Shown piece by piece: positions 1-29,355 of a DNA stretch of 29,355 bases (its first letter is position 1; each line of letters begins with the position of its first letter). The translations under genes and the position numbers were made by a program. The stretch is from a virus. The notes beneath the pieces were generated by a model. That model searched no databases and was not told where the DNA came from. It saw nothing but the letters and a program-made list of their open reading frames with translations. The DNA lies in the IMG/VR virus record IMGVR_UViG_3300012936_000109, positions 1 through 29,355 of that record; one strand, 5' to 3'.

Positions 1-123
1 ACTAGCTCTGAGATTTAGCTCATTATATACATTCTCTGCATCAAAAGTAGATAGACCCTCTAGTCTGAATTGTTTCTCTATTTTCTCAGTAGTTTTTTTG
101 TCTTTAGCTTTTAGTAGCTCTAC
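1..123. repeat. Terminal direct repeat, copy 1 (identical to 29233..29355); circular-closure overlap or terminal redundancy
   Basis: I aligned bases 1-123 (actagctctgagattt...ttagtagctctac) by eye to the last 123 bases of the window. They match exactly. Confidence 0.95.
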
Positions 124-177
124 CTCCTTTTGCATCTCCTCTATAGTTCTAGGAGTTTTCTGATTTTCATTTTTCAT
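1..177 (-). CDS. Hypothetical protein, 5' part of an ORF spanning the circular junction (115 aa in total when joined to 29062..29232)
   Basis: ATG at 177-175 lies in the recurrent context ATCATGAAAAAT. The frame stays open for 59 codons to base 1 (MKNENQKTPRTIEEMQKEVELLKAKDKK...NLRAS) and continues in frame at 29232. Confidence 0.7.
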   Translation of the reverse strand, partial: MKNENQKTPRTIEEMQKEVELLKAKDKKTTEKIEKQFRLEGLSTFDAENVYNELNLRAS

Positions 178-203
178 GATTTTTTTATGTTTGATTTATA
201 CTG

Positions 204-245
204 ACTATGCATTTTTGCATAGTTTCGCCTGGTCATCATCCAGGC
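204..245 (-). other. Two tandem perfect hairpins in the late/early intergenic region (possible terminator, operator, ori or pac element)
   Basis: GCCTGG-tcatcat-CCAGGC at 227-245 has a 6-bp stem. aCTATGCA-tttt-TGCATAGt at 204-223 has a 7-8-bp stem. Neither is followed by a U-run on the transcribed strand. Confidence 0.45.
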
Positions 246-263
246 TCATCAGAGTATGTTATT

Positions 264-461
264 TTATAGTATCTCCCAGTCAATTACTTCTATTGACCAT
301 GGATTGTGACCGAATTGTATAGCACACAAATTGGATGCTTTCATTTTTGCATCCCATTCACATTCTGCTTCTACTGTGTAATCTATGCATGTTAATTTAT
401 CTGATTTACTCGGGTTTTCTTTGACCTCTACCTCTACTATGTATTCATATGTATTTCTCAT
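264..461 (-). CDS. Hypothetical small acidic protein (65 aa)
   Basis: ORF track entry with an ATG start, packed 2 nt from the upstream gene. I recognise no motif. Confidence 0.7.
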   Translation of the reverse strand: MRNTYEYIVEVEVKENPSKSDKLTCIDYTVEAECEWDAKMKASNLCAIQFGHNPWSIEVIDWEIL

Positions 462-463
462 GA

Positions 464-805
464 CTATTTATTTTGGGTTGATTTAATTAGCCTTTCTAAT
501 TCTCGTGCATAGGTCCAAGTGTTCCAGCTGTAGTAGCTATCAGTTGATATCATTTCCATTCTGTTTTTTGGGATTCTCAATCTCCAGCCATAGTATGTTC
601 CTCCTCCACTAGTGTGGTATCTGAGACCATTTTCTCTCCATTTAGTTTCACTCCATTCATCAAGATGATTTTCTATGTTTAGCTCATCTAAAAGTTTTGA
701 TATCATTTTTAGACTTGGAAATCTAGCTGGTCTTGTTCCAGTTTCTCTTGCTTTTAATTGTATTCTGTAATACGTTTTTTGAGATTGTTTTGATAGGTTT
801 TTCAT
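464..805 (-). CDS. Hypothetical protein (113 aa), W/Y/R-rich
   Basis: ORF track entry. The start lies in the recurrent 12-mer ATCATGAAAAAC. No family recognised. Confidence 0.75.
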   Translation of the reverse strand: MKNLSKQSQKTYYRIQLKARETGTRPARFPSLKMISKLLDELNIENHLDEWSETKWRENGLRYHTSGGGTYYGWRLRIPKNRMEMISTDSYYSWNTWTYARELERLIKSTQNK

Positions 806-807
806 GA

Positions 808-996
808 TTATTTATTTTGGATTGATAATTCAGATATTCTAGCTTCTATGTCAGACTGCATGTCTCTCAAATCTTTTTTAGATAATTGATACATATTCTG
901 TAGTGGAAAAAATATCATATCCTTTACCTTTTCTAGTAGAGTATTTAGCTCTGTGATATTGTATTTTTCTAGTTGTTTTTGTCTTTCGTTTTTCAT
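808..996 (-). CDS. Hypothetical protein (62 aa from ATG 996; the track's 1026 start is a GTG)
   Basis: The codon at 1026-1024 is GTG. ATG at 996 sits in the recurrent ATCATGAAAAAC context, about 30 nt downstream of a consensus Bacteroidota promoter. Confidence 0.7.
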   Translation of the reverse strand: MKNERQKQLEKYNITELNTLLEKVKDMIFFPLQNMYQLSKKDLRDMQSDIEARISELSIQNK

Positions 997-1025
997 GATA
1001 TATATGTTTTGATTTATGATGGTCA

Positions 1026-1058
1026 CAAAGATATATACATAAAAATATATAATCCAAA
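1026..1058 (-). promoter_or_regulatory. Bacteroidota-type sigma-A promoter (TTTG-N21-TATCTTTG)
   Basis: The minus strand reads TTTG (1058-1055), a 21-nt spacer, then TATCTTTG (1033-1026). This matches the published Bacteroides/Flavobacterium consensus TTTG-N19-21-TAnnTTTG and sits about 30 nt upstream of ATG 996. Confidence 0.6.
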
Positions 1059-1094
1059 TATTTTATAGTAAAATGTAAAACTACTAGATAAAAA

Positions 1095-1265
1095 CTACTG
1101 TTTTTTAGTCTTTAATTTTGCACAATTAGATGTATGTTTAGCCTGTGCTGTAGCTATTTTGTCTGGGTCTTTTGTCTTTTTTGCCTTTTGTAGCTGTCTG
1201 TATGATAGATTACATGCTTTGAGATAGGCTAATCTGGTATTTGTCCTGGTCTTTTTTTTGCTCAT
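1095..1265 (-). CDS. Small, highly basic hypothetical protein (56 aa), absent from the ORF track
   Basis: Manual translation: MSKKKTRTNTRLAYLKACNLSYRQLQKAKKTKDPDKIATAQAKHTSNCAKLKTKKQ*. Its ATG overlaps the TGA of the upstream phosphoesterase gene (ATGA), suggesting translational coupling. Confidence 0.5.
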   Translation of the reverse strand: MSKKKTRTNTRLAYLKACNLSYRQLQKAKKTKDPDKIATAQAKHTSNCAKLKTKKQ

Positions 1266-2002
1266 GACCCTAGATGTTGAGGTATTATGACTGGTATCTG
1301 TCCATTATCTAGTATTACAGCACATGATATGATATACTTTTTAGTAAAATTCTTAGCATAAGCCATAGCATATGATTTGTCATTTACACCTACACCAGTC
1401 TGGACAGCAAAGCATCTCCTATCTTTGTCTACTTTCCACATAATTGTAGCCTCTGTATGTAGATGTCCCTGTACAACAGACATCCCCCAGTTTACCATCC
1501 TATTATATGCAGCCTTTAGACCACTACTACCAGTACCATGTGTATAGTATACATTGTCATATACAAAATGGTCATCAAATGTCCACCCTGGAGTACCTAG
1601 GACCTCATCATAGTCTCTAATCCATCTATTTGATACACCAGCATCAAAGCTCTTTCTAGCTATAATAGCATCATGATTGCCAATGCATACATCTGCTACT
1701 GGAAATGCTTTGTACCATTCCTGTATCTGGTCTATAGCTCTCTGTAGCTCCTCTCCAGCTGAGTAGCCATCTGGGTCTGTAGGATGAAATGAGGAATAAT
1801 GGTTGTCTATTAAATCTCCTATAAAAATTACATGAGATATATTGTACTTTTTATAGACATCTAGACAGTGCTCAAGATATCCCTTTTTTATAAAAGGAGC
1901 ATGGAGGTCCCCAATGACCATAATATTTCTAGTACTACTCTCTCTATGTTTTTTGATGATGTCATACTCCTCAGATGTTAGTCTGTATTGTTTGTTTGCC
2001 AT
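1262..2002 (-). CDS. Calcineurin-like metallophosphoesterase
   Basis: The canonical metallophosphatase motifs occur in order: GDLHAP, GDLIDN, GNHD, GHLH. Confidence 0.8.
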   Translation of the reverse strand: MANKQYRLTSEEYDIIKKHRESSTRNIMVIGDLHAPFIKKGYLEHCLDVYKKYNISHVIFIGDLIDNHYSSFHPTDPDGYSAGEELQRAIDQIQEWYKAFPVADVCIGNHDAIIARKSFDAGVSNRWIRDYDEVLGTPGWTFDDHFVYDNVYYTHGTGSSGLKAAYNRMVNWGMSVVQGHLHTEATIMWKVDKDRRCFAVQTGVGVNDKSYAMAYAKNFTKKYIISCAVILDNGQIPVIIPQHLGS

Positions 2003-2016
2003 ATGTCAAATATATA

Positions 2017-2044
2017 GACATGCACCCCTCATAGAATGCATGTC
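2017..2044 (-). terminator. Inverted repeat after the lysis cassette (possible terminator), followed by a TATATTTG box at 2014-2007
   Basis: GACATGCA (2017-2024) pairs with TGCATGTC (2037-2044) around a 12-nt loop. On the minus strand it is followed by UAUAUAUUUG. The -7-like box lies only 4 nt from ATG 2002, so its promoter role is doubtful. Confidence 0.35.
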
Positions 2045-2071
2045 ATATTTTATTTATTCACTGTATGATGT

Positions 2072-2257
2072 TTATTTCTTTTTAGATATATCAGCTACTC
2101 CCTGTGCTCCAGTCAATGCGACTAGTGCCCAGAATATCTCACTAACAGCATCCTCAGTAACACCTAGTGCTCTGGCAATAGTAGGGATGACCATAGCTGC
2201 TATAGTATACCATACTTTCTTAGATTTTAAAATTGTGTAGATTAAATACTCTTTCAT
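2072..2257 (-). CDS. Small membrane protein, holin-like (61 aa)
   Basis: Hydrophobic segments VWYTIAAMVIPTIARALGV and IFWALVALTGAQGVA plus a charged C-terminal KKK. It lies directly downstream of the endolysin gene. Confidence 0.55.
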   Translation of the reverse strand: MKEYLIYTILKSKKVWYTIAAMVIPTIARALGVTEDAVSEIFWALVALTGAQGVADISKKK

Positions 2258-2274
2258 TTTATATATAATTTTGG

Positions 2275-2703: not shown

Positions 2704-2759
2704 ATCTGTAGTATATTAGTATCAAAAACTTTAGTTCGTAGAAACACTAGATAACAGCA

Positions 2760-2930
2760 TCACTTATTTTTCTTTCTATAGTACCACCATCTGTCAGCTG
2801 TATATGCTATAGAAATGACTAATAAAAGTATCTTTAAAATCAACTCTAAGTCAGTTAAACACAGTGCAAATGATGTACTATTTACTGTCAGTACTGGTCC
2901 TATTTCTTCTACTATTCTCTTTCCTGGCAT
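2760..2930 (-). CDS. Tail-anchored small membrane protein (56 aa), possible holin/antiholin/spanin-like; absent from the ORF track
   Basis: Manual translation: MPGKRIVEEIGPVLTVNSTSFALCLTDLELILKILLLVISIAYTADRWWYYRKKNK*. It has a C-terminal TM helix plus a basic tail and sits just upstream of the endolysin. Confidence 0.45.
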   Translation of the reverse strand: MPGKRIVEEIGPVLTVNSTSFALCLTDLELILKILLLVISIAYTADRWWYYRKKNK

Positions 2931-3015
2931 TGCTTTTTTCCTTTTTTTGGAGATACTTTTTTAGTGCTATCTCATTATTATTTTTAGTATATTTAGTAAT
3001 CTTTATATTCATATT

Positions 3016-3606: not shown

Positions 3607-5802
3607 TTATGTTAAACCTCCTCTATTAGGCATATCTATTGGAGCTACTGGTACCTCCTGTGGGTTTGGCTCTGGTCTGAAACCCTGTCTCCTAGCCTCA
3701 CTAGTAGATACTACCTCATCATCATTTATAGCTCTATTACCTTTTTGTAGGTAAATTTTTCTAAACCATTTGTGATAACAGTATTTTCCTCCTTTGTATT
3801 TCCATATGCTGTATGTGTTCTTTCCATTAGGTCCCCATCCTGGATTGACAGCCATTCTACTCATAGCTAGTATATCTTCTTTTCTATATACTTTTCCTGC
3901 AGCCATCATAGCTTTGCAAAATGGTCTTTCTGGAGATTGACTACCAGTGTATATATATCTAACTCTAAATAACTGTCCATCTCTACCAGTACCATCCTGC
4001 TTTGATTTCCTATTAGGATATCCTTTTCCAGTTTTTACAGCCATGTCTACTCTACCACTATTTAGTTTAGCCTCATAATCCTCATCCTCAGTTTCATCCT
4101 CAACTGTCTCCTCAGAGATTAACTCATAGTCTTTGAGTATATCCTCCTCATACTCCCCAAAAGTCGCTAAAAACTCATCTAACACGCTATTAGAGGACAG
4201 CTCAGACTTCATAGGAACACAGTTAGGTACTTTTTTACCTCTTTTTATTTTATGTCCATATGGCTCATAGCCAGGTTGACATGGATTAGGAGATATCAAA
4301 TCTGTCTGACTACAGTCCTCACAGCTGAGCTCCATAATCTGTTCATGATTTTCACAGGGCATATAGTAGGTAGTACCATCCATAGTATGTTCATGATAAC
4401 CTGTACAACCCATACTCTCTGCTTTAGCCTCTGCCTCCTCTATAGTATCATATAGTGGTAACTCTATACCATCTGTAATCATGCTACCTACCTTTGAATA
4501 CTCATATCTTTTGTATCTCTTTTTCTTCTTTTTACCTTTTTTATACAGTTCCTGCTCATCTGCAACAGTATCATCCTCATCAGCTAGTGCTGGTAATCCT
4601 AGCTCCTCTCTCAGCTCATCTACAGTCATGACCTCTTTGAGTACATCAGCTCCAAATTTATTGTTCATAGGTGCTGATTTCTGTATAGATATAGATAGAT
4701 TTATATCATTTATATCTAGTATATGTCTGATACATTTTAGTATTACATCCTGGAATGGAGATATTACTGTATTGTGATACAGCTCATATGCATCTAATAG
4801 CTCTGTTCTACCTCCTAGCTGTCCCTCTGTTTTTACACCTAGTAGCATTGGAGATGTAACTCTATGTGCAATCATGATATTCTGTATAACTAGCTTGTTT
4901 AACACCTCATATTGTTTGTCTGCATCTGATAGTGATATAGGCTGTAGTGTAGGCTCTCTAGATTTATCATCAGAAAATGTCAGTACAAATTTACCTGCAT
5001 TACTAGCTCCAGTAAATTTTTGCTGTATCTTTTTTTCTAGCTCATATCTCTCCTCCTCAGTAGGTATACCATTATTAAAGTTTATCCAAAAGTTAGGAGA
5101 AAAGCCATTTCTAATATTTGACAGATGGAATTCTGATATTAACTGGTCAGTTAAACACCAGTTTGTACCTGCTTGATAGTCTGGAGTATGGTATATTTCC
5201 ATACCTGGAGAGTACATCCCTTTGTACAGTAGCTGTGATGGCTTTGACCTATCACTAGGGTTAAATGCTGCTACTGGTTTTGGTATATATCCAGTCTGTC
5301 TATATTTACTCCAGTCAGCTGACAGCCAGTACTCATCTACCTGTCCCCACTCATTGAGCTTTCCACATCTAACTCTCTCTACTGGTACATGATAAATCTC
5401 AGATATTGTAGTTCTATCCTGGCTCCATATGATGTTTAGTGCAAACCCACCCTGTAATTTTAGGTCAAATGATATTTTTTTTAGGACCTCATGTAGTGTT
5501 TCCTTTCTATTTGCCTGTGCTAAAAATTTTTTCAGCTTGACATATGCATCCAGATTATCCTCAGCTCCATCATCTACTACTATATTGTCTCCAGCAATCA
5601 TAGCACTAGTAGCATTTACTACAGCTGCATGTGTAGGAGAGCTATTATATAGGTCTATGATAAACTGTGGATACTGGTTTTTATATGCTCCAGTACCATA
5701 CTGTACCCAGTTATCAGCTGCACTCTCTGATATGTGAGGTGCTGTCTGTTGGTCTAGATAGACCTGCATTAGAGGTGGTATTTTATTAGTTTTCTTTGCC
5801 AT
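3607..5802 (-). CDS. Portal protein fused to a Cys/His-rich module and a MuF/SPP1-gp7-like minor head domain (731 aa)
   Basis: The N-terminal ~420 aa is portal-like. A lysine run KKGKKKKKRYKRY and a GCTGYHEHTMDGTTYYMPCENH...C..C...C...C module follow. The C-terminus ERPFCKAMMAAGKVYRKEDI...NPGWG...YKGGKYCYHKW resembles MuF-type head morphogenesis domains. Confidence 0.65.
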   Translation of the reverse strand: MAKKTNKIPPLMQVYLDQQTAPHISESAADNWVQYGTGAYKNQYPQFIIDLYNSSPTHAAVVNATSAMIAGDNIVVDDGAEDNLDAYVKLKKFLAQANRKETLHEVLKKISFDLKLQGGFALNIIWSQDRTTISEIYHVPVERVRCGKLNEWGQVDEYWLSADWSKYRQTGYIPKPVAAFNPSDRSKPSQLLYKGMYSPGMEIYHTPDYQAGTNWCLTDQLISEFHLSNIRNGFSPNFWINFNNGIPTEEERYELEKKIQQKFTGASNAGKFVLTFSDDKSREPTLQPISLSDADKQYEVLNKLVIQNIMIAHRVTSPMLLGVKTEGQLGGRTELLDAYELYHNTVISPFQDVILKCIRHILDINDINLSISIQKSAPMNNKFGADVLKEVMTVDELREELGLPALADEDDTVADEQELYKKGKKKKKRYKRYEYSKVGSMITDGIELPLYDTIEEAEAKAESMGCTGYHEHTMDGTTYYMPCENHEQIMELSCEDCSQTDLISPNPCQPGYEPYGHKIKRGKKVPNCVPMKSELSSNSVLDEFLATFGEYEEDILKDYELISEETVEDETEDEDYEAKLNSGRVDMAVKTGKGYPNRKSKQDGTGRDGQLFRVRYIYTGSQSPERPFCKAMMAAGKVYRKEDILAMSRMAVNPGWGPNGKNTYSIWKYKGGKYCYHKWFRKIYLQKGNRAINDDEVVSTSEARRQGFRPEPNPQEVPVAPIDMPNRGGLT

Positions 5803-8296: not shown

Positions 8297-9223
8297 TTAG
8301 TCATGTCTCACAATATCTCCTCCCTGTGCATGCTGAGTTCCCCCAGTAAATTTAGCAACAACTCTAATATTATTAGAGCCATCTAGGTCAGACATATCTA
8401 AGACTTTAATCTCTGTATGGTCACTGACTAAATCAGTACCAAAGAATAAATTTGACTTCTGTGCTGCACACAATTTATTGTCTGGCATTCCTGGACATAC
8501 AGCTATCTTAATACCATTGTATAATGGTACAAATGCATCATTCATGCTGTATAATTGCTGATATCCTGCATTAGCTTGATTCTGTAGATATAATCTGTAT
8601 GATGTAGGGGACATATAGATGTATAGGTCATCTTTAGTATATACAGCTGATGGTATTGCAGCTGATATTAAACCTAGATTGTCATCTATGTTAGTAGCAT
8701 CAAAAGCTGTACCAGCTCCACCTGCATTATCAGATTCTACTATAGCTGTATCATTCTCAAAGTGACCGTTTCCTGGGTGGAAGAAACCTGTAAACTCTCC
8801 TCCATTTGCACTCAGTCCAGTCCAGATATTAGTCTCTACATGGTCTGCAATAGAGCTAGATAAATGTGACATTAAAAAAGCTGTAAAGTCATCAGATAGA
8901 TTATTGTTGTGAGCTCCTGCTGACATCTGTGCAGCTTGCCACTCAGATAATACATCATTTTTACATAGGTCAATATTAATCTGTAAGTTTTTTGGCTCTA
9001 ATACTCTTTCTGTTAAAGTCACATCTCCTGCGTTTGTAAAATCACAGTTAGCATCAGTGATGAGACCACTAGTAGCTACTTTTGTGATATTTCTTTTGTA
9101 TTTAACATTTTCTAAAATTGTCAAATACTCTAATGATTTAGCCTCTTTCAATGCTGCAGCTATATACTGTCCAGCATGACTACCTGAGTAGTTAGAGGTA
9201 ATTGGTGTTACGAATCCTGGCAT
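8297..9223 (-). CDS. Major capsid protein (HK97 fold)
   Basis: A 308-aa ORF following the protease and scaffold genes, with composition and pattern typical of HK97-like capsid proteins. Confidence 0.75.
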   Translation of the reverse strand: MPGFVTPITSNYSGSHAGQYIAAALKEAKSLEYLTILENVKYKRNITKVATSGLITDANCDFTNAGDVTLTERVLEPKNLQINIDLCKNDVLSEWQAAQMSAGAHNNNLSDDFTAFLMSHLSSSIADHVETNIWTGLSANGGEFTGFFHPGNGHFENDTAIVESDNAGGAGTAFDATNIDDNLGLISAAIPSAVYTKDDLYIYMSPTSYRLYLQNQANAGYQQLYSMNDAFVPLYNGIKIAVCPGMPDNKLCAAQKSNLFFGTDLVSDHTEIKVLDMSDLDGSNNIRVVAKFTGGTQHAQGGDIVRHD

Positions 9224-9241
9224 TTTATTTTAATTTTATGG

Positions 9242-9934
9242 TTATTTAATATTTGATAGATTATACATATATTTATCTCTAGCTGATAGTTTTGCATACT
9301 CAGCTTTAGATATAGTATTTCTAGTAGTATTTTTACTAAACTTTGACATAGTCTCTGGTCTAGTCGCTGGAGCTTTTTCTAGCTCTGCTACCTTTTTTGA
9401 CAGCTCCTCTTTCTCAGCTCTCTCAGACACTACCTCCTCCTCTAGTGTAGCTGTGTTGCCCTCTAGCATTTCTCTCAGCTCATCTATCTGACTTTGCATA
9501 GAGCTGAACATCTCCTTTACAGCATCACTCATTTCCATAATTACTGTATCAGCATCAAACTCTAATTCTGTAGTTTCTTTTATCTTTTTTGGCTGTCTAG
9601 CTGGCTCTGGAGTACTCATCTCCTCCTCATCTGTCTCTGTCTCTACCTCCTCAGCTGGAGCCTCCTCAGTCTCCTCAGTTTCCTCCTCTATTATTTCTGA
9701 TACAATACCCTCCTCCTCTACTTTAAAAGCTATACCACTCTCTGTAGCATATTTGCCGACTGGCAATGGCATGGTTGTACCATCCTCTGTGAGTACAGAA
9801 ACGCTAACTCCAGCCTCTAGAGCATCTGCCTCAGTTGTAATAATTGTACCATCTATCAATTTATCTTGATAGGCTAGTTTTGTCTCTGGTTTATCTATAC
9901 CTAGAGCCAATCTAATCTGTTCCTTTATAGTCAT
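9242..9934 (-). CDS. Scaffolding protein
   Basis: Very acidic (EEETEETEEAPAEEVETETDEEE) with a coiled-coil-like C-terminus. It lies between the protease and capsid genes. Confidence 0.6.
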   Translation of the reverse strand: MTIKEQIRLALGIDKPETKLAYQDKLIDGTIITTEADALEAGVSVSVLTEDGTTMPLPVGKYATESGIAFKVEEEGIVSEIIEEETEETEEAPAEEVETETDEEEMSTPEPARQPKKIKETTELEFDADTVIMEMSDAVKEMFSSMQSQIDELREMLEGNTATLEEEVVSERAEKEELSKKVAELEKAPATRPETMSKFSKNTTRNTISKAEYAKLSARDKYMYNLSNIK

Positions 9935-9973
9935 AATAGTATATGTATTTTATAGTAAATATATAATTAATAA

Positions 9974-20200: not shown

Positions 20201-21514
20201 CTAATATACATAATACCTGCCTGTATTAGGGTTTATTTCATAGTACATCCTCATCATCATAGTATCAGAATAGTCTGGAGACCTGCCTATTAAATCTTTG
20301 ATTTTGTCCTTTGCTAGTATGCTCAGTTTACTATCTTTGTCTATATTTATTCTTCTGACCTGCTCCAGCTCCTGTATCAGTTGCTCCTTAAATTTTATGT
20401 CATTTGTACTCACACCTATCTGTCCTTTATTTATCATATCAGCTAGTTTATAGTAGCACTGGGTCTTTAGATTTTGATAGTTTTCTTTGAGTAGAGGTTT
20501 ACTGTTATTTTGAAACCCTAGACATCTCAATATATCTTTGCATCCACCTCCTACACCATCCTCATCCACTATGATATTAGTCAGTGGTACAGCCTCTCTA
20601 TTCTGTATCTCTTTTATCCTATCAGCTACCTCTACCATACTACTACTATCCATGATGACTATATGTGATACCTGTAGACCATTCCAGTACATGATACAGG
20701 TCTTATCCTTTCCATATCTAGCTATATCAGCTGTGATATATTTATCTCCAGTAGGCACTACAGCACTAAACATATTGATGATACTATCATAGTTTATTAG
20801 CTGGTCTTGACTATCATCATATTCCCAGTCCCCCCTCAATAGTCTAGCTTTTGATATCTCATCTAGATTACCTAGCTGCTCTCTATAGTGTTTACTGATA
20901 TGCTGATTATCATCTACTAGTGCCTGTATAAATCTCCTGTGTTTAGGTAGAGCTCCCTCTCTATCTGGCTTATAGTACATCTGATATATCCATCCCTTTG
21001 TAGGGTTGCATGTCATCAGTAGTTTAGGTATTAGTCCATACTCATCAAGTCTATATCTGAGCCTACTAGATACTATCTGCTTTGCCTTTTCTGTCAGCTG
21101 AGATACCTCATCTATAAATGCAAATGTGAGCTCCAGAGAGCCTAGTGAATCATAGTTTGGGTCTGATGGATATAGAAATAAATCTTTGAGTATTATCTCA
21201 CTATCATTGTAAAATTTAATGATATTGCTCTGTCCATTATATGTGTAGTGTATACCAGATTTTAGTGACCACTGATTACAGATATCAAAAAAAGTATTGA
21301 GAGTAGTTTTTTTTAGAGTATCTAGTTTGCTCCTACCTATCATCCCTCTGATACCAGCATACTGTAGACATAGTATGATACTATATGCACATCCTAGATA
21401 GCTCTTTCCTCCACCAGCTGCACCTCCATAGAGCACCTCTGTTGTACTTTTATCCAGTAGATACCTCATAGCTATCTTCTGCTTTGTGATGAGCTGTGGA
21501 GATATATCTATCAC
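20201..21514 (-). CDS. terL: Terminase large subunit
   Basis: Walker A GGAAGGGKSY, Walker B-like TFAFIDEVSQ, and a C-terminal nuclease-like region. It overlaps TerS by 4 nt. Confidence 0.9.
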   Translation of the reverse strand: MIDISPQLITKQKIAMRYLLDKSTTEVLYGGAAGGGKSYLGCAYSIILCLQYAGIRGMIGRSKLDTLKKTTLNTFFDICNQWSLKSGIHYTYNGQSNIIKFYNDSEIILKDLFLYPSDPNYDSLGSLELTFAFIDEVSQLTEKAKQIVSSRLRYRLDEYGLIPKLLMTCNPTKGWIYQMYYKPDREGALPKHRRFIQALVDDNQHISKHYREQLGNLDEISKARLLRGDWEYDDSQDQLINYDSIINMFSAVVPTGDKYITADIARYGKDKTCIMYWNGLQVSHIVIMDSSSMVEVADRIKEIQNREAVPLTNIIVDEDGVGGGCKDILRCLGFQNNSKPLLKENYQNLKTQCYYKLADMINKGQIGVSTNDIKFKEQLIQELEQVRRINIDKDSKLSILAKDKIKDLIGRSPDYSDTMMMRMYYEINPNTGRYYVY

Positions 21515-21858
21515 TCAGTATGGTCTAGATTGATATTGATTTTTATAGGCTCTCCAGCTGAGGTATGGTCCATCTCTTGCCTCTCTACAAACCCTCTCCT
21601 TTTTCCCTTTGTTTTTAGATAGAATATAGTAGCTGATGTATTGCCATCCTTTATCTGTTTGAATAGCTCACTCTCTGCAAAATCTAGAGCTATGTCTGAT
21701 ACATCCTGTACATCTCTACTAAATGTCTCATCATTTTTTAGCCAATTATAAAATTGAGTTCTACCTACACCAGCTATCTTGCATGCTGTAGTGACTACTC
21801 CTAGAGATTTTACCAGAGCCTCTAATACTCTCTTTTTACTGTGTTCAGTTTTGTTCAT
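21511..21858 (-). CDS. terS: Terminase small subunit (HTH type)
   Basis: ALVKSLGVVTTACKIAGVGRTQFYNWLKND...FAESELFKQI...ATIFYLKTKGKRRGF is typical of HTH small terminases. It lies immediately upstream of terL. Confidence 0.75.
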   Translation of the reverse strand: MNKTEHSKKRVLEALVKSLGVVTTACKIAGVGRTQFYNWLKNDETFSRDVQDVSDIALDFAESELFKQIKDGNTSATIFYLKTKGKRRGFVERQEMDHTSAGEPIKININLDHTE

Positions 21859-22135
21859 AGTCTGTATCTATTATGTCTAAAAATTTATTATGTTTTTCTA
21901 GGTTACAGCTGCTCAGCTCTATATATGTTTTTTGCTCCTCTGGAAATGTATGTATAGCAAAGTGACTTTCTGCCAATAGCCATATAGCTGTATATCCCTC
22001 TGGCTCAAATTTATGCTGCATAAAATCTAGTACATTAAACTGTGCTCTTTTAAGTGCATTACAAAAATAGAACATCAGTAGCTCTGGGTCTGTCTCTGGT
22101 ATCCATTGACTATGTTTAAATATCTCAGCTTTCAT
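21845..22135 (-). CDS. speD: S-adenosylmethionine decarboxylase (pyruvoyl, class 1/SpeD-like) homologue, shortened (96 aa)
   Basis: FEPEGYTAIWLLAESHFAIHTFPEE...ELSSC matches the self-processing LxESHxxIHTxPE core. Ser57, His62 and Cys77 are spaced +5 and +20 as I recall for the Ser/His/Cys active site of small prokaryotic AdoMetDCs. Confidence 0.65.
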   Translation of the reverse strand: MKAEIFKHSQWIPETDPELLMFYFCNALKRAQFNVLDFMQHKFEPEGYTAIWLLAESHFAIHTFPEEQKTYIELSSCNLEKHNKFLDIIDTDYEQN

Positions 22136-23417
22136 CCTGTATTTCTGTAGTTAAATCTTTGTAATTCTTTTTGATTTTTTTGACATCCCCTTTGTAAAAC
22201 ACTAGTACATTCTGATGACATTTTCCTACCTTTCTATTCCTCATAGTCCTAGCTGCTCTCATAGCCAGTGTACCTATCATCTCTACTAGTATCATCTCAT
22301 TATATAGTCTCATACCAGCTCTATCAAATATATCCTTTATATGGTCTACAAATCTATAGTAGTATCCCTCTTTGTCTCTGATATCTCCTACTACTATCAC
22401 AGCAAATCTATCATCTTTTAGGCACTGTATAGCATCTGTAAAAGCTGTATCTAGTATAGTCATAAAGTCCTCATATGTCTCTTGATTACTAGCATCATTC
22501 TCCATATCACTATATACCTCTAAATCATAGTATGGTGGACAGCTAAATAGTAGGTCCTGTGTATCCTCTGCTATATGCTGTAGTACACTCCTACCATCAT
22601 CATTGATATACTCAGCTGTCATACTAGCTACTCTCTCATTATTTATATTAGCCTGCTCTGCTCTCAGCTCTATCCCAGTAAATGTATGTCCTAGACTAGC
22701 TGATACATACCCAAATACACTATCTCCAGCAAAACAATCAAACACTTTAGATGGTCCAGGAGTAAACCATTTGCATACTATCTCAGATAGTACAGGGTCT
22801 AGTATGGATACCTCTGGAGCTGCTTTTAGATTACCTTTCCATGTACCATACTGTAGCTCATTTAGCTCATTCATAGCTGTCTCTCTAGTCTCTCCTTTGT
22901 CTAGTATGAGATTTTTCCAATGTTTTTTTCTCTCTTGCCAGTATCCCTGTCTAGTATCTAGTATAGTAAATGGAGGTACACCAAATGTCTCAGCTAGCTC
23001 TATTCCCTCTGGCTGTTCTCCTACAGATATATCATCATCTGTGAAACCTACTAGCTCTCCCTGTGTAAACCCCCAATCTATGAGCTCCTTTTCATCAAAA
23101 TAATTAGCTAGAGCATCCATATCAAATGCTCCAGTATTTTTGTTTAGTCTGACATTTAACTCCTTTTCTTTGTTTAGGTCTAGACTGAGCTCCACTGTAG
23201 GCACCTCATCTATTCCCATACTCTCTGCTACTTTACATCTCTGATGTCCTCCTATGATGATATTTAGCCTGTCTGGATGAGTATTAACTATAATAGGGTC
23301 TACTATACCAAAACGATTGATTGAGGCTCTAATGTCCTCAAATTGCTCTGTACTGAGCTGTCTAGGATTGTACTCAGCTGGTATCAGCTCTGAGATTTTT
23401 CTATTAACTATTTTCAT
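22125..23417 (-). CDS. ParB-like nuclease domain fused to a SAM-dependent amino DNA methyltransferase
   Basis: The N-terminus has the ParB-N pattern (IVDPIIVN...IIGGHQRCKVAESMG). The C-terminal half has motif I-like VFDCFAGDSVFG followed by motif IV CPPY (FSCPPYYDL). Confidence 0.75.
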   Translation of the reverse strand: MKIVNRKISELIPAEYNPRQLSTEQFEDIRASINRFGIVDPIIVNTHPDRLNIIIGGHQRCKVAESMGIDEVPTVELSLDLNKEKELNVRLNKNTGAFDMDALANYFDEKELIDWGFTQGELVGFTDDDISVGEQPEGIELAETFGVPPFTILDTRQGYWQERKKHWKNLILDKGETRETAMNELNELQYGTWKGNLKAAPEVSILDPVLSEIVCKWFTPGPSKVFDCFAGDSVFGYVSASLGHTFTGIELRAEQANINNERVASMTAEYINDDGRSVLQHIAEDTQDLLFSCPPYYDLEVYSDMENDASNQETYEDFMTILDTAFTDAIQCLKDDRFAVIVVGDIRDKEGYYYRFVDHIKDIFDRAGMRLYNEMILVEMIGTLAMRAARTMRNRKVGKCHQNVLVFYKGDVKKIKKNYKDLTTEIQDES

Positions 23418-26768: not shown

Positions 26769-27297
26769 GTCTCAGTGATTTAGTTATACTCATTTTATAT
26801 TTGTACTCAGAGAATGCATCTAGTAGCATTTTTAGCACTTTAGAGACATTTTTATGATTACTATATACTTTTCCCTCAAACTGACCTATGTGCACTGTTA
26901 TGGTCATTTTTGTATCTGTATTTTTTATAGATGGAGTAGCATTGATACCATGCATATGTAGTAGAGTATCATATTTATCTCTATCCATATACTCTAGTTC
27001 ATTGTCACTATTCAGAAATTTCTCCTTTAGTGCATTGTAAAAATACCTATACTCATTCCATCCCTCTATATTTGCATCATGTTTTTGATACTGTACATAG
27101 AAGCTGGCTCTATGTCTACTAGTGACATGCTTTGATAGTGTATTATAGTCTACTCCTAGCTCTCTCATTATCAGATTATTAGCACACACTCTACATAGAT
27201 TATAGTCTCTCTCTCTACATGAGCTGTGATATGCTCCGACTGGTATCCCAGCCAGAGCCTCACTTAATTTTATTATTTTACTGATTTTTGTTTCCAT
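26743..27297 (-). CDS. DnaA C-terminal-domain-like HTH protein
   Basis: SSCRERDYNLCRVCANNLIMRELGVDYNTLSKHVTSRHRASFY resembles DnaA domain IV (R..i...R.ia.yL.rel...s...ig...rdHstv). This is a memory-based call. Confidence 0.4.
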   Translation of the reverse strand: METKISKIIKLSEALAGIPVGAYHSSCRERDYNLCRVCANNLIMRELGVDYNTLSKHVTSRHRASFYVQYQKHDANIEGWNEYRYFYNALKEKFLNSDNELEYMDRDKYDTLLHMHGINATPSIKNTDTKMTITVHIGQFEGKVYSNHKNVSKVLKMLLDAFSEYKYKMSITKSLRHERIYQNT

Positions 27298-27916
27298 ACT
27301 CCTTTATAGCTTTGTCTAGTATATCATGCTGGTCTGCACTGACCTCATAGTCTGATAGTTTAGCTAGGACCTGCTCAGACTTTCCATCTGCTACATAGTC
27401 TAGCATTGCTACTAGTATTTGTTTGGTCATCTTTTTCTTAAATGTATTTTTAGGCTCTCCAGTATATAGACTAGGTTTATACATCTCCTCCAGCTCTGAT
27501 ACATATCTATTGTCATCATATTTACCTAAAAATATATCTGCATTGAATCCTAGTTTAGATAGACCTTTTGTTAGTGCATCTGTACTCACTTTTTTATAGC
27601 ACTCATCATCTAGTTTACCTTTACCAGTATGTGTATTTATAGAGCTATTGATATCATACTCACATATAGTATCATCTATCCTATACCATAGTACAGCCTG
27701 GTATCCTATTAGTCCATCACAGATGAGATTGAATCTCTCATCTTTTACACCCCATCCAGAGCCTATAGGACCGAATTGCTCAGTAGCTATATGCATCTGG
27801 TGCTGTGCATTTACAGTAGTGAATTTTCTACCGAAACCTACCTTTCTAGTATAGTTTGGGTCTGTAGTCTCTACAGCTGACCACAGCCATAGATTGTCTT
27901 TCTTTTTGTTTTTCAT
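27278..27916 (-). CDS. Rad52-like single-strand annealing protein (Sak/DUF1071 type)
   Basis: TDPNYTRKV...FTTVNAQHQMHIATEQFGPIGSGWG and TDALTKGLSKLGFNADIFLG match conserved blocks of Rad52-family phage annealases. Confidence 0.55.
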   Translation of the reverse strand: MKNKKKDNLWLWSAVETTDPNYTRKVGFGRKFTTVNAQHQMHIATEQFGPIGSGWGVKDERFNLICDGLIGYQAVLWYRIDDTICEYDINSSINTHTGKGKLDDECYKKVSTDALTKGLSKLGFNADIFLGKYDDNRYVSELEEMYKPSLYTGEPKNTFKKKMTKQILVAMLDYVADGKSEQVLAKLSDYEVSADQHDILDKAIKEYGNKNQ

Positions 27917-27918
27917 GA

Positions 27919-28203
27919 TTAGATATTTTTAGTTATTATATAATTGTACAGCTCTCCTCCACACTCCTCATCCTCATCTACTACATTCTCTGTTACACAG
28001 ATATATGAATCTACAGCTAGACTTCTCAGCATGCTCTGTAGATTTTCTACAGGCACTCTACTCCAGTATCCGAATCTGAGAGTTATAGCTGGTTTGAGTT
28101 TTAGGAATGTCCCATCTGGGTTTGCATCTGTCATAGTAGTACCCACCTCAAAAGTACCAAATTTTTCCTCTAGGAGGATGAGATGATTTATAGATATTCT
28201 CAT
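27919..28203 (-). CDS. Hypothetical early protein (94 aa)
   Basis: ORF track entry overlapping the upstream gene by 4 nt. No motif recognised. Confidence 0.7.
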   Translation of the reverse strand: MRISINHLILLEEKFGTFEVGTTMTDANPDGTFLKLKPAITLRFGYWSRVPVENLQSMLRSLAVDSYICVTENVVDEDEECGGELYNYIITKNI

Positions 28204-28403
28204 AGTGTTTTTATATATTTAATGTATTGTTTTTTTATATGCTCTTTGTCATGTAGATGTAGTGCCTCAGACATACTCATCACTACATGGATATTCTGTC
28301 CATCTACCACTACATCATAGTACACCTCTCCAGTCTTTGGGTCTGCATATACAGACCATACCTCAGAGACATATACTGATTTGATTTTTGGCTCTTTTGT
28401 CAT
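28200..28403 (-). CDS. Hypothetical early protein (67 aa)
   Basis: ORF track entry with 4-nt overlaps on both sides. Confidence 0.7.
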   Translation of the reverse strand: MTKEPKIKSVYVSEVWSVYADPKTGEVYYDVVVDGQNIHVVMSMSEALHLHDKEHIKKQYIKYIKTL

Positions 28404-28642
28404 ATGTCTAATTTTATAGGATTAGCTATACTATATAGACTGATAGGTTTCCCTAGTTGCTGACTAGCATAGTTTAGATGTTTAGATGTAGTAGGAGAGG
28501 TCGTTCTACCTCCTACATTCCAGTATACTTTATCTATTTTATCATCTGTAATTTTACCTACTATGGTATCATATGAGTATATGTACTCATCATCATAGCA
28601 TAGATTTTGTCTGTATCTGTCAAAATAATATCTGTATTTCAT
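28400..28642 (-). CDS. Hypothetical early protein (80 aa)
   Basis: ORF track entry. The SYDTIVGKI...SPTTSKHLN pattern recurs in uncharacterised phage proteins. Confidence 0.7.
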   Translation of the reverse strand: MKYRYYFDRYRQNLCYDDEYIYSYDTIVGKITDDKIDKVYWNVGGRTTSPTTSKHLNYASQQLGKPISLYSIANPIKLDI

Positions 28643-28643
28643 T

Positions 28644-29078
28644 TTATGATTTTTTTAGTTTTACACTCAGTATTTCTCTCCCTCCTTTGACTATAGGTGG
28701 CTGGACCAGCTCTCCAGTATCAGTATCTACTATACTGTGTTTGATAGCTGATTTGTGTTTGTCTTTTAGTGCTTTCAGCTCCAGCTCTTTTGCTACTATT
28801 TCTGGTATCTCACTGTAGTCATATCTGGTAGCACTATTTTTGATAGTGATTTCAGTATCAGCATATGTGAATGACTTCTGTCCATACTTTGTAGCCTCAT
28901 CTATAGTGAGGTCCTGTAGGTGGTTTTTAGCCTGTTTTAGAGCCTCCTCTATCTTTTTTATAGTGATATATACCTCCAGAGGGTTTAGGTCTCCAGAGAG
29001 GACCTTTGATACTAGGCTGTCTACAGCTCTAGGTATCTCATTTTGTTTAGATATCTCCATACTAGTATATCCTTTCAT
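28644..29078 (-). CDS. Siphovirus Gp157-like protein (recombination-module associated)
   Basis: It has a helical N-terminus with NPLEVYITIKKIEEALKQ, then ...YDYSEIPE...ELVQPPIVKGGREILSVKLK. This resembles the Gp157 family often found next to phage annealases. It is a weak call. Confidence 0.35.
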   Translation of the reverse strand: MKGYTSMEISKQNEIPRAVDSLVSKVLSGDLNPLEVYITIKKIEEALKQAKNHLQDLTIDEATKYGQKSFTYADTEITIKNSATRYDYSEIPEIVAKELELKALKDKHKSAIKHSIVDTDTGELVQPPIVKGGREILSVKLKKS

Positions 29079-29355
29079 TTCTCATTTCACTTCTCATCCT
29101 CCTCCTATATCTCTCTAGTCTGATGATATCTGTCATGGCTTTTCTGACCTCATTAGCACAGTCAGCATATGCAGCACCTACACTACTATCTACATCTTTA
29201 GTAGACAGTGCATGAGCTATATTCTCCATGATACTAGCTCTGAGATTTAGCTCATTATATACATTCTCTGCATCAAAAGTAGATAGACCCTCTAGTCTGA
29301 ATTGTTTCTCTATTTTCTCAGTAGTTTTTTTGTCTTTAGCTTTTAGTAGCTCTAC
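29062..29355 (-). CDS. Hypothetical protein, 3' part of the junction-spanning ORF (29233..29355 duplicates 1..123)
   Basis: Manual translation continues ...IMENIAHALSTKDVDSSVGAAYADCANEVRKAMTDIIRLERYRRRMRSEMRNERIY and stops at TAG 29064-29062. It overlaps the next gene's start by 17 nt. Confidence 0.7.
   Translation of the reverse strand, partial: VELLKAKDKKTTEKIEKQFRLEGLSTFDAENVYNELNLRASIMENIAHALSTKDVDSSVGAAYADCANEVRKAMTDIIRLERYRRRMRSEMRNERIY
29233..29355. repeat. Terminal direct repeat, copy 2 (identical to 1..123)
   Basis: Same 123-nt string as the window start. Confidence 0.95.

What the first reader, a model, noticed from the sequence alone, without database searches (positions are those of the whole stretch)
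1..29355. GATC is completely absent from the genome while iso-compositional CTAG is abundant
I read every line, including block and line boundaries, and found no GATC. GATA, GATG, GATT and NATC are everywhere. CTAG has exactly the same base composition and is very common: I count 10 copies in 9241-9960 alone. AGCT and CAGCTG are also conspicuously frequent. From rough base frequencies, several tens of GATC sites would be expected in 29 kb. Complete loss of a single 4-bp palindrome is the classic footprint of selection against a GATC-specific host nuclease. That could be an MboI/DpnII/Sau3AI-type enzyme, a methyl-dependent DpnI-type enzyme, or Dam/MutH-like processing. The phage also encodes its own ParB-methyltransferase, so site avoidance and methylation may be complementary anti-restriction strategies.
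Basis: seen in the sequence. Interest (0 to 1): 0.75.

Follow-up and report, generated by a model that had tools for sequence, protein, structure and literature searches.

The report
Marine phage genome purged of GATC
This complete 29-kb marine phage genome has no GATC at all (70-110 expected) and has also lost GGCC and nearly every CpG, the well-known footprint of a phage dodging its host's DNA-cutting restriction enzymes, so it is a clear but ordinary example.

Summary
GATC occurs 0 times in a complete 29,232-bp genome. Expected counts are 91-111 (composition and Markov models) and 69-89 (synonymous codon shuffles; the lowest of 400-1000 shuffles was 49-70). Avoidance is written entirely in codon context: Asp before a C-starting codon is GAC 63, GAT 0; Ile after xxG is never ATC (0/135); GGA is never followed by Ser. 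CTAG (265), AGCT (333) and CAGCTG (49) are abundant but match their sub-word expectations.

GATC is not the only missing word. GGCC, TCGA, CCGG, GCGC and CGCG are all 0, and CpG O/E is 0.06.

The phage belongs to a large uncultured marine family whose nearest cultured relatives infect Flavobacteriia. In 59 distinct relatives, GATC is eliminated in 19/58, CATG in 16/57, GTAC in 7/59 and GGCC in 6/23. AT-only palindromes are never eliminated. There are at least 10 switches of GATC status on the TerL tree.

Best explanation: selection by GATC-cutting host restriction enzymes, as one layer of multi-site avoidance. The host and its enzyme are unidentified, so MboI/DpnII-type and DpnI-type cannot be told apart. 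The ParB-methyltransferase is not Dam-like and has no GATC to act on. This is a new member of a known kind.

The parts
1..29355 (.). Complete phage genome with no GATC on either strand. Also has no GGCC, TCGA, CCGG, GCGC or CGCG, and only 58 CpG.
   Evidence: Exact counts and Markov expectations. Codon-shuffle nulls.
1..123 (+). Left copy of an exact 123-bp terminal direct repeat. It marks a complete, circularly assembled or terminally redundant genome of 29,232 bp.
   Evidence: the repeat finder family D1, 100% identity, spacing 29232.
29233..29355 (+). Right copy of the terminal direct repeat.
22125..23417 (-). ParB_N + N6_N4 DNA methyltransferase fusion (430 aa). Motif IV reads FSCPPYYDLE (CPPY). 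It is not a Dam-family enzyme.
   Evidence: PF02195 E 6e-9 and PF01555 E 1.7e-10. phrog_498 E 9e-127. CPPY is present in all 120 best homologues. The SPPY motif of PDB 2zie aligns to CPPY.
21845..22135 (-). S-adenosylmethionine decarboxylase proenzyme-like gene (96 aa). It overlaps the methyltransferase gene by 11 nt. The LLAESHFAIHTFPE processing motif is present.
   Evidence: PF02675 E 4.2e-15. phrog_27309 E 6.7e-38. PDB 2iii E 6.5e-7, with the ESH site aligned.
21511..21858 (-). Small terminase subunit candidate.
   Evidence: phrog_4044 and phrog_309, E 1e-8 to 4e-8.
20201..21514 (-). Large terminase subunit. Used as the family marker.
   Evidence: PF04466 E 3e-10. 52% identity to Flavobacterium phage 11b and 49% to Cellulophaga phage phi10:1.
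22796..22799 (-). GACC (Asp GAC + C) where the closest relative L001 has GATC. Example of a synonymous T-to-C escape.
   Evidence: blastn alignment. Sequence check.
21567..21570 (-). GACC where L001 has GATC.
20280..20283 (-). GGTC (AGG-TCT) where L001 has GATC (AGA-TCC). Example of a synonymous A-to-G escape.
8297..9223 (-). Major capsid protein candidate. Used as the second family marker.
   Evidence: 139 related viral contigs. The only cultured matches are Nonlabens phages P12024S/L and Cellulophaga phage phi46:1.

Best explanation
The genome has been purged of GATC by natural selection, because the bacteria this phage infects (most likely marine Flavobacteriia) carry restriction endonucleases that cut at GATC.

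Every GATC that arises by mutation exposes the incoming DNA to cleavage. Variants in which a synonymous change removes the site take over (GAT to GAC before a C; ATC to ATA or ATT after a G; GGA or AGA to another Gly or Arg codon before TCN). This continued until no site was left.

The same process has removed GGCC and the CG-containing 4-mers. GATC is therefore one layer of a multi-site 'stealth' genome in a phage with no detectable lysogeny genes.

Shown: the absence, its statistical extremity, its encoding by codon context, its recurrence and lability among relatives, and the restriction-site-like spectrum of words lost in the family.

Inferred: that a nuclease is the selective agent, that the host is a flavobacterium, and the type of enzyme. 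It could be MboI/DpnII/Sau3AI-like, cutting unmethylated GATC, or DpnI-like, cutting methylated GATC. Both are escaped by having no site.
For: Statistics:
- 0 observed vs 69-111 expected under six null models; no shuffle fell below 49.

Codon context:
- Asp before C: GAT 0, GAC 63, although GAT is 72% of all Asp codons.
- Ile after xxG: ATC 0 of 135, against 123 ATC elsewhere.
- GGA (the commonest Gly codon, 267 uses) is followed by Ser 0 times.
- AGA is followed only by AGY Ser codons.

Substitution pattern:
- One-substitution neighbours are enriched: GACC/GGTC z +9.1 and GATA/TATC z +11.8.
- The closest relative L001 (85% nt identity) has 6 GATC. They align to GACC, GACC, GGAC and GGTC in the window.

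Family survey of 59 distinct loci of at least 8 kb:
- Eliminated: GATC 19/58, CATG 16/57, GTAC 7/59, GGCC 6/23, ACGT 5/55, GCGC 3/34, CTAG 2/59.
- AATT, ATAT, TATA, TTAA and TGCA: 0/59.
- At least 10 changes of GATC-free status on the TerL tree.

Related phages:
- Relatives L016 and L018 carry a phage Dam (PF05869) and keep GATC above expectation (47/28, 56/31); L020 also carries one but has GATC 12/23.
- Cultured flavobacterial phages do the same kind of thing. Croceibacter phage P2559S: CATG 0/62, CCGG 0/90, CGCG 0/96, GGCC 1/117. Flavobacterium phage 11b: GGCC 0/20. Nonlabens phage P12024S: GGCC 0/32.

Lifestyle:
- No integrase or repressor was found. Extreme elimination (CB < 0.1) is typical of non-temperate dsDNA phages, and GATC is under-represented in all 46 phages whose hosts encode a GATC-specific Type IIM enzyme (PMC6286503).

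Host group:
- Flavobacterium psychrophilum strains carry many Type II systems (CCGG, CGCG, CCNGG, GCSGC) and a prevalent GATC methyltransferase (PMC11837570).
Against: - The host is not identified, and no GATC-specific endonuclease has been seen.
- The genome-collection scan gave only two distant Bacteroidota MAG hits.
- The closest relatives L001 (6 GATC vs 27 expected) and L081 (10 vs 14) retain GATC, so the pressure is not uniform even within the clade.
- Many other short words are also strongly depleted: CpG in all contexts, AAG/CTT, GGTGA, CCTGA, GACAC. The genome is compositionally peculiar in ways one enzyme cannot explain.
- The association of phage Dam with retained GATC rests on three loci from two lineages.
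Confidence: 0.8

Rival explanations
1. GATC is counter-selected by Dam-linked host processes rather than by restriction. Candidates are MutH nicking at hemimethylated GATC during mismatch repair, or SeqA sequestration, as proposed for enterobacteriophages.
For: GATC depletion in coliphages has classically been attributed to this (established knowledge). A GATC methyltransferase is prevalent in Flavobacterium psychrophilum (PMC11837570).
Against: - All host clues point to Bacteroidota: TerL to Flavobacterium, Cellulophaga, Bacteroides and Polaribacter phages; MCP only to Nonlabens and Cellulophaga phages; MAG hits in Bacteroidota. MutH and SeqA are confined to some Gammaproteobacteria (established knowledge).
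- This model does not explain the parallel elimination of GGCC, CATG, GTAC and others in relatives.
- It also does not explain the all-or-nothing pattern.
Confidence: 0.03
2. The phage keeps its own genome free of GATC so that a phage-encoded GATC-specific nuclease can destroy host DNA without harming phage DNA (self/non-self discrimination by site absence).
For: About half of the ORFs have no assigned function. The ParB_N domain family includes nucleases (phrog_940 and phrog_15396 hits).
Against: - No restriction-endonuclease-like, HNH, PD-(D/E)XK or DpnII/MboI-type domain was found in any ORF scanned with Pfam, PHROGs or PADLOC.
- GATC-free relatives differ widely in gene content.
- The ParB-methyltransferase cassette occurs in relatives that keep GATC: L009 22/60, and the P0023 phage 171/146.
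Confidence: 0.03
3. The absence is a by-product of mutation bias, codon usage, amino-acid composition or CpG avoidance, with no selection on GATC itself.
For: The genome has extreme compositional biases: CpG O/E 0.06, AAG/CTT 0.43, strong strand asymmetry.
Against: - Shuffles that keep the proteins, the codon usage and the CpG deficit still give 68.8 GATC (minimum 49 of 400).
- The GAT and ATC trinucleotides are at expectation (O/E 1.01).
- Codon choice flips only in the contexts that would create GATC.
Confidence: 0.01
4. Sequencing or assembly artefact, for example a library method that loses GATC-containing fragments.
For: The window is an uncultured assembled genome. No exact copy of its terminase is on record in the contig collection.
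Against: - Relatives from the same metagenome differ. In 3300030101, L104 has GATC 23/22 with CTAG 0/40, while L122 has GATC 0/60.
- GATC-free relatives come from many independent samples.
- The reading frames are intact, with compensating codon choices.
Confidence: 0.01

Closest known systems
Restriction-site avoidance in virulent dsDNA phages. Examples recalled from memory: the complete lack of GATC in Staphylococcus phage K and its relatives, and strong GATC depletion in T7. Surveyed by Rusinov et al. 2018 (PMC6286503).
   Same: - A short palindrome that is a Type II/IIM recognition site is eliminated (O/E < 0.1) from a dsDNA phage genome with no lysogeny genes.
- Other palindromes of the same composition are untouched.
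- Avoidance is lineage-specific.
   Different: - The host and its enzyme are unknown here.
- The phage is an uncultured marine, probably flavobacterial, virus.
- GATC loss is combined with loss of GGCC and a near-total loss of CpG, which goes beyond ordinary site avoidance.
Cultured marine Flavobacteriia phages: Croceibacter phage P2559S, Flavobacterium phage 11b, Nonlabens phage P12024S.
   Same: - Homologous terminase or capsid (25-52% identity).
- P2559S has the same ParB-methyltransferase/AdoMet decarboxylase cassette.
- They also eliminate 4-bp palindromes. P2559S: CATG 0/62, CCGG 0/90, CGCG 0/96, GGCC 1/117. 11b and P12024S: GGCC 0.
   Different: - None of them has eliminated GATC (10/48, 43/66, 82/91).
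- None is CpG-poor (O/E 1.06, 0.72, 0.94).
- No DNA-level similarity to the window.
[quoted passage not shown]
   Same: A ParB_N domain is linked to a DNA methyltransferase, encoded immediately upstream of the terminase genes. [quoted passage not shown] The gene order here is MTase, AdoMet_dc, TerS, TerL.
   Different: - This subfamily has CPPY instead of D/S/NPPY in motif IV.
- It is consistently followed by an overlapping AdoMet decarboxylase gene. I found no description of this in the searchable literature.
- Its target sequence is unknown.
CpG-depleted Mollicutes genomes with CpG-specific methyltransferases (M.SssI, M.MpeI; Wojciechowski et al. 2013, cited in PMC11282364).
   Same: Very low CpG O/E with an excess of TpG and CpA (1.20 and 1.19).
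   Different: - No C5 methyltransferase is encoded in the window.
- The host lineage is probably Bacteroidota, not Mollicutes.
- Relatives of the phage span CpG O/E 0.05-1.5 at similar G+C.

Membership tests
Restriction-site avoidance by a phage (sensu Rusinov et al. 2018) | The word is strongly under-represented against a compositional/Markov expectation (ratio < 0.1 counts as 'eliminated'). | tested here: met
   0 vs 111 (maximal-order Markov), 98 and 91. 0 vs 69-89 in codon shuffles.
Restriction-site avoidance by a phage (sensu Rusinov et al. 2018) | The under-represented word is the recognition site of a known Type II / IIM restriction enzyme. | tested here: met
   GATC is the MboI prototype site (PMC11837570). 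It is also the Type IIM site discussed in PMC6286503.
Restriction-site avoidance by a phage (sensu Rusinov et al. 2018) | The host encodes a restriction enzyme with that specificity. | not testable with these tools
   Host unknown. The genome-collection scan returned only two distant Bacteroidota MAG contigs. No REBASE access.
Restriction-site avoidance by a phage (sensu Rusinov et al. 2018) | dsDNA, non-temperate phage (the class in which complete elimination is typical). | tested here: inconclusive
   No integrase, repressor or excisionase domain was found in the ORFs scanned. Several small ORFs have no hits, and lifestyle cannot be proven from sequence.
Restriction-site avoidance by a phage (sensu Rusinov et al. 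2018) | Depletion acts at the DNA level, through synonymous choices and independent of the protein sequence. | tested here: met
   Context-dependent codon use: GAT|C 0 vs GAC|C 63; G|ATC 0/135; GGA|TCN 0.
Dam/MutH-driven GATC counter-selection (enterobacteriophage type) | The host has Dam-directed mismatch repair with MutH (Gammaproteobacteria). | tested here: not met
   Indirect evidence only. All homology-based host clues are Bacteroidota. The MutH distribution is from established knowledge, and the host itself was not examined.
Dam-family (GATC) methyltransferase, as a description of the window's methyltransferase | Match to a Dam family profile (PF05869, or the MethyltransfD12 type). | tested here: not met
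   Only PF01555 and PF02195 are hit. PF05869 is found in relatives L016, L018 and L020, not in the window.
Phage ParB-Tls locus methyltransferase (Iyer et al. 2015) | ParB domain linked to a DNA methyltransferase, encoded next to the terminase genes. | tested here: met
   ParB_N + N6_N4_Mtase at 22125-23417. TerS at 21511-21858 and TerL at 20201-21514, all on the same strand. The same order is seen in 7 other phages or prophages.
S-adenosylmethionine decarboxylase, class 1 (PF02675) | Profile match and a conserved Glu-Ser self-processing site. | tested here: met
   PF02675 E 4.2e-15. LLAESHFAIHTFPE aligns to LLAESHISIHTWPE of PDB 2iii. Activity was not tested, and the protein is short (96 aa vs about 130).

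The most novel reading that the evidence does not exclude
GATC loss may be only one layer of a 'stealth' genome. The other layer is the near-total loss of CpG in every flanking context: O/E 0.06, against 0.3-1.5 in most relatives of similar G+C. A handful of 4-bp restriction sites cannot explain this.

It would imply a factor in the (probably flavobacterial) host that acts on the bare CpG dinucleotide. That factor could be CpG-specific methylation followed by deamination or methyl-dependent restriction, or a CpG-sensing defence. Neither is known outside Mollicutes or eukaryotes.

A second unexcluded reading concerns the conserved CPPY ParB-methyltransferase + AdoMet decarboxylase + terminase cassette. 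It could perform a packaging-coupled DNA modification using decarboxylated SAM, rather than plain methylation.
Probability: 0.12. Interest if true: 0.75.

Novelty: new member of a known kind. Interest (0 to 1): 0.35.

Why it matters
As a single fact, a phage without GATC is a textbook anti-restriction footprint and changes nothing conceptually. Its value is practical, in three ways.

- **Host prediction.** It predicts that the unknown host population carries a GATC-directed nuclease (and GGCC- and CG-directed ones). This can help link this abundant uncultured marine phage family to hosts by matching avoidance fingerprints to R-M repertoires.
- **A natural experiment.** The family has dozens of ~30-kb genomes with independent, all-or-nothing losses of GATC, CATG, GTAC, GGCC, CTAG and others, and a 30-fold range in CpG content. 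It shows how fast site avoidance is gained and lost.
- **Two side observations worth their own follow-up.** These are the extreme CpG depletion and the methyltransferase/AdoMet-decarboxylase/terminase cassette.

Tried and rejected
- **Megablast against 50,697 phage records:** no match. There is no cultured close relative.
- **Exact look-up of the terminase in the contig index:** not on record.
- **tRNA scan:** none, so no host clue.
- **Genome-collection scan with TerL:** only two distant Bacteroidota MAG hits at 41% and 34% identity.
- **Bacteroidota-type promoter pattern (TTTG...TAnnTTTG):** 6 matches vs 0.55 expected, but 4 of the 6 lie on the non-coding strand. Judged uninformative.
- **Search for a phage-encoded GATC nuclease or any restriction-like domain (Pfam, PHROGs, PADLOC):** nothing found.
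- **CTAG, AGCT and CAGCTG as functional motifs:** rejected.
  - They match maximal-order Markov expectation.
  - They are evenly spread with no strand polarity: CAGCT 126 vs AGCTG 134.
  - 38 of 49 CAGCTG copies are xCA-GCT-Gxx codon contexts, consistent with CpG avoidance at codon boundaries and codon preference.
- **Correlation between the ParB-methyltransferase cassette and GATC or CpG status:** none. Carriers range from GATC 0/111 to 171/146, and CpG O/E from 0.03 to 1.06.
- **Literature search for the methyltransferase + AdoMet decarboxylase pairing:** no paper found.
- **GCAG depletion (13 vs 74 on the + strand):** this is strand-asymmetric. The reverse complement CTGC is near expectation on the + strand, so it is a coding effect and not site avoidance.

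Full report
**1. Observation**

An exact count finds no GATC in the 29,355-base window. CTAG occurs 265 times, AGCT 333 times and CAGCTG 49 times.

The window begins and ends with the same 123 bases (1-123 = 29233-29355, 100% identity). It is therefore a complete 29,232-bp genome, and the junction is covered.

G+C is 36.1%. All 48 predicted genes lie on the minus strand and cover 96% of the sequence.

**2. Is it more than chance?**

Expected GATC counts under Markov-type nulls:
- 91 from base composition
- 98 from a first-order model
- 111 from the maximal-order Markov model

Shuffling synonymous codons while keeping every protein sequence gave:
- 89.3 ± 6.5 (minimum 70 of 1000) when codons are pooled genome-wide
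- 80.7 ± 6.4 (minimum 63) within genes
- 68.8 ± 5.9 (minimum 49 of 400) in a stricter shuffle that also preserves the genome's CpG deficit

The Poisson probability of zero given 68.8 is about 1e-30.

**3. How the absence is encoded**

Codon choice switches exactly where a GATC would arise.
- Asp is GAT in 72% of cases overall. Before a codon starting with C it is GAC 63 times and GAT never.
- Ile after a codon ending in G is ATA or ATT 135 times and ATC never. ATC is used 123 times elsewhere.
- GGA is the commonest Gly codon (267 uses) and is never followed by Ser.
- AGA is followed only by AGY Ser codons.

The GAT and ATC trinucleotides themselves are at expectation (O/E 1.01).

The words one substitution away from GATC are among the most over-represented 4-mers: GACC/GGTC 173 vs 113.5, and GATA/TATC 589 vs 438.

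The closest relative found is L001 (terminase 91% identical in protein, 85% in DNA). It still has six GATC. Four of them align to GACC, GACC, GGAC and GGTC in the window. This is selection on the DNA word, not on proteins or on composition.

**4. GATC is not alone**

Several other words are missing too:
- GGCC is absent (expected 12-16).
- TCGA, CCGG, GCGC and CGCG are absent.
- CpG as a whole occurs 58 times against about 924 expected (O/E 0.06).

The 58 residual CpGs lie in only six of the ten symmetric NCGN contexts. None lies in TCGA, CCGG, GCGC or CCGC/GCGG. With CpG held at 58, TCGA is still expected about 7 times.

Some non-palindromic words are depleted in both orientations:
- GGTGA 2 vs 22, and its complement TCACC 0 vs 12.5
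- CCTGA 1 vs 10, and TCAGG 1 vs 28
- GACAC 2 vs 23, and GTGTC 4 vs 14

The trinucleotide AAG/CTT has O/E 0.43.

By contrast, CTAG, AGCT and CAGCTG match their maximal-order Markov expectations (268, 308, 51). They exceed codon-shuffle expectation only moderately. CAGCTG is mostly the codon context xCA-GCT-Gxx (38 of 49 copies), has no strand polarity and is evenly spread. This is consistent with a by-product of CpG avoidance at codon boundaries and of the codon preferences.

**5. What the phage is**

Genes identified:
- large terminase, portal, DnaB helicase, a metallophosphoesterase and the ParB_N + N6_N4 methyltransferase fusion
- DnaD-like helicase loader, RusA resolvase and an exonuclease
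- small terminase
- S78-type prohead protease and an M15 peptidase endolysin

No integrase, repressor or restriction-endonuclease-like domain was found.

There is no DNA-level match among 50,697 phage records. Protein-level clues point to Bacteroidota:
- The terminase is 52% identical to that of Flavobacterium phage 11b and 49% to Cellulophaga phage phi10:1. Further matches are in Bacteroides and Polaribacter phages.
- The capsid protein matches only Nonlabens and Cellulophaga phages.
- The only hits in 185,579 species genomes are two Bacteroidota MAG contigs.

The host is therefore most likely a marine member of the Flavobacteriia. This is inferred and not shown.

**6. The family**

More than 140 IMG/VR contigs encode relatives of the terminase or capsid, many with contig lengths of 28-31 kb. 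After removing overlapping or near-identical loci, 59 distinct loci of at least 8 kb remain.

How often each word is eliminated (O/E ≤ 0.05 with expectation ≥ 8):

| Word | Eliminated |
|---|---|
| GATC | 19 of 58 (11 more below 0.4) |
| CATG | 16 of 57 |
| GTAC | 7 of 59 |
| GGCC | 6 of 23 |
| ACGT | 5 of 55 |
| GCGC | 3 of 34 |
| CTAG | 2 of 59 |
| TCGA | 2 of 34 |
| CGCG | 2 of 13 |
| AGCT | 1 of 59 |
| CCGG | 1 of 7 |
| AATT, ATAT, TATA, TTAA, TGCA | 0 of 59 each |

The words that get eliminated are all prototype Type II recognition sites.

On a terminase tree, GATC-free status changes at least ten times. Within the window's own clade:
- Two other genomes are GATC-free over the whole or most of their length. 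The 30,340-bp contig (L002 + L122) is covered completely. The 29,707-bp contig (L003 + L113) is covered over 6320-29707.
- L163 has GATC 0 vs 14 expected.
- L001 (6 vs 27) and L081 (10 vs 14) retain sites.

GGCC and CpG status vary independently of GATC status among these relatives.

One metagenome (3300030101) contains a GATC-free relative (L122) and a GATC-normal but CTAG-free relative (L104: GATC 23/22, CTAG 0/40). This excludes a library artefact.

Two relatives with a phage Dam gene (PF05869; L016, L018) keep GATC above expectation (47/28, 56/31). A third carrier (L020) has GATC 12/23. This is consistent with self-methylation as the alternative escape route, although the sample is tiny.

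**7. Cultured comparators**

| Phage | Word counts (observed/expected) |
|---|---|
| Croceibacter phage P2559S | CATG 0/62, CCGG 0/90, CGCG 0/96, GGCC 1/117, CTAG 1/57, GATC 10/48 |
| Flavobacterium phage 11b | GGCC 0/20 |
| Nonlabens phage P12024S | GGCC 0/32, CCGG 2/32 |

Wholesale elimination of 4-bp palindromes is thus common among phages of marine Flavobacteriia.

The literature fits this picture.
- Rusinov et al. found that complete elimination is characteristic of non-temperate dsDNA phages and of orthodox Type II sites. They also found GATC under-represented in all 46 phages whose hosts encode the corresponding Type IIM enzyme (PMC6286503).
- Flavobacterium psychrophilum strains carry many Type II systems (HpaII CCGG, FnuDII CGCG, ScrFI, TauI) and a prevalent GATC methyltransferase (PMC11837570).

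**8. Mechanism**

The best-supported explanation is selection by GATC-cutting restriction enzymes in the host population. It acts together with enzymes directed at GGCC and at CG-containing sites (confidence about 0.8).

I cannot say whether the enzyme cuts unmethylated GATC (MboI/DpnII/Sau3AI type) or methylated GATC (DpnI type). Having no site escapes both, and it would let the phage move between strains of either kind.

Rivals:
- Dam/MutH-type counter-selection is unlikely for a Bacteroidota host and does not explain the family-wide spectrum.
- A phage-encoded GATC nuclease finds no support in the gene content.
- Mutation or composition bias is excluded by the shuffles.
- An assembly artefact is excluded by same-sample controls.

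**9. The methyltransferase**

The ParB_N-methyltransferase matches PF01555, not a Dam family. Its motif IV is CPPY in the window and in all 120 best homologues. This aligns to the SPPY motif of the Thermus enzyme 2zie.

It cannot be protecting GATC in a genome that has none. Carriers of the cassette range from GATC 0/111 to 171/146. Complementarity with site avoidance is possible, through protection of some other site, but it is untested.

The gene sits in the ParB-terminase arrangement described by Iyer et al., who predicted packaging-linked DNA modification (PMC4738411).

**10. Seen in passing**

The methyltransferase gene is followed by an overlapping gene for an AdoMet decarboxylase-like protein of about 90-130 aa with an intact Glu-Ser processing motif, and then by the terminase genes. 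The same order occurs in all eight contexts that carry the pair:
- the window
- a 91%-identical contig
- a structurally different marine phage
- two Logan/NCBI contigs
- a Dysgonomonas prophage
- Croceibacter phage P2559S
- Pseudomonas phage ZRG1

. Listeria phage B054 has the methyltransferase, but no AdoMet decarboxylase is annotated beside it. I found no description of this pairing.

CpG O/E in the family ranges from 0.05 to 1.5 at nearly constant G+C. The cause of the extreme value in the window is unexplained.

**11. Verdict**

The phenomenon is a well-known kind, and this is a new, clean instance in an uncultured marine phage family. Interest is modest (0.35). It is raised slightly by the multi-layer avoidance, the extreme CpG loss and the comparative richness of the family.

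Noticed in passing
window 1-29355: CpG is almost eliminated: 58 copies vs about 924 expected (O/E 0.06). TpG and CpA are in excess (1.20, 1.19). All NCGN contexts are depleted at least 8-fold. The residual CpGs completely avoid TCGA, CCGG, GCGC, CGCG and CCGC/GCGG. Relatives of similar G+C span CpG O/E 0.05-1.5. Cause unknown.
   Followed up: partly
window 1-29355: GGCC is also absent: 0 vs 12-16 expected (Poisson P about 1e-5 to 1e-7). ACATGT is 0 vs about 7, and AAGCTT is 0 vs 4-6.
   Followed up: partly
window 1-29355: Several non-palindromic words are depleted in both orientations, as expected for asymmetric restriction sites. GGTGA/TCACC: 2+0 vs 22+12.5 (GGTGA is the HphI site, from memory). 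CCTGA/TCAGG: 1+1 vs 10+28. GACAC/GTGTC: 2+4 vs 23+14.
   Followed up: partly
window 1-29355: The trinucleotides AAG/CTT (O/E 0.43) and GAA/TTC (0.61) are depleted strand-symmetrically. Codon CTT is used 15 times vs CTA 376, and GAA 134 vs GAG 483. The bias is lineage-specific among relatives (0.42-1.18). Unexplained; PAM-like or defence-motif avoidance is one idea.
   Followed up: no
window 21845-23417 (minus strand); also L163, L164-L166, L167 42666-44307, L171, L172, L173-L176: A conserved cassette: ParB_N-methyltransferase with an unusual CPPY motif IV, then an overlapping short AdoMet decarboxylase gene (intact ESH processing site), then TerS and TerL. It is found in eight contexts across Bacteroidota and Gammaproteobacteria phages. 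No description was found in the searchable literature. Possible roles: polyamine supply for packaging, manipulation of the SAM pool, or a non-methyl DNA modification.
   Followed up: partly
window 1-123 and 29233-29355: Exact 123-bp terminal direct repeat, so the window is a complete 29,232-bp genome.
   Followed up: yes
window 1-29355: All 48 predicted genes are on the minus strand (96% coding). The + strand is strongly skewed (T 38%, A 26%, C 21%, G 15%). Codon usage is unusual for a 36% G+C genome: ATA, CTA, GTA, AGA and GAG are preferred.
   Followed up: partly
L005, L104 (CTAG 0/12 and 0/40); 16 loci with CATG eliminated; L020, L044, L098 and others with GTAC eliminated: Relatives show different all-or-nothing palindrome losses in lineage-specific combinations. 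AT-only palindromes and TGCA are never lost. This is a family-wide patchwork of avoidance fingerprints.
   Followed up: yes
L016, L018, L020: These relatives encode a small phage Dam (PF05869, E 1.8e-20). L016 and L018 keep GATC above expectation (47/28, 56/31); L020 has 12/23. This suggests self-methylation as the alternative to site loss. Only two lineages, so anecdotal.
   Followed up: partly
L167 (Croceibacter phage P2559S, JQ867099.1): This cultured flavobacterial phage has eliminated five 4-bp palindromes at once: CATG 0/62, CCGG 0/90, CGCG 0/96, GGCC 1/117, CTAG 1/57. Its overall CpG is normal (O/E 1.06).
   Followed up: partly
window 3607-5802 (minus strand): The portal protein is unusually long (731 aa). 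It has a C-terminal extension containing DUF3721 (E 4.8e-9) and Cys-rich segments.
   Followed up: no
L010, L011, L013: These relatives have CpG over-represented (O/E 1.44-1.52) and TCGA abundant (43-68 copies) at 34-35% G+C. This is the opposite extreme from the window.
   Followed up: no
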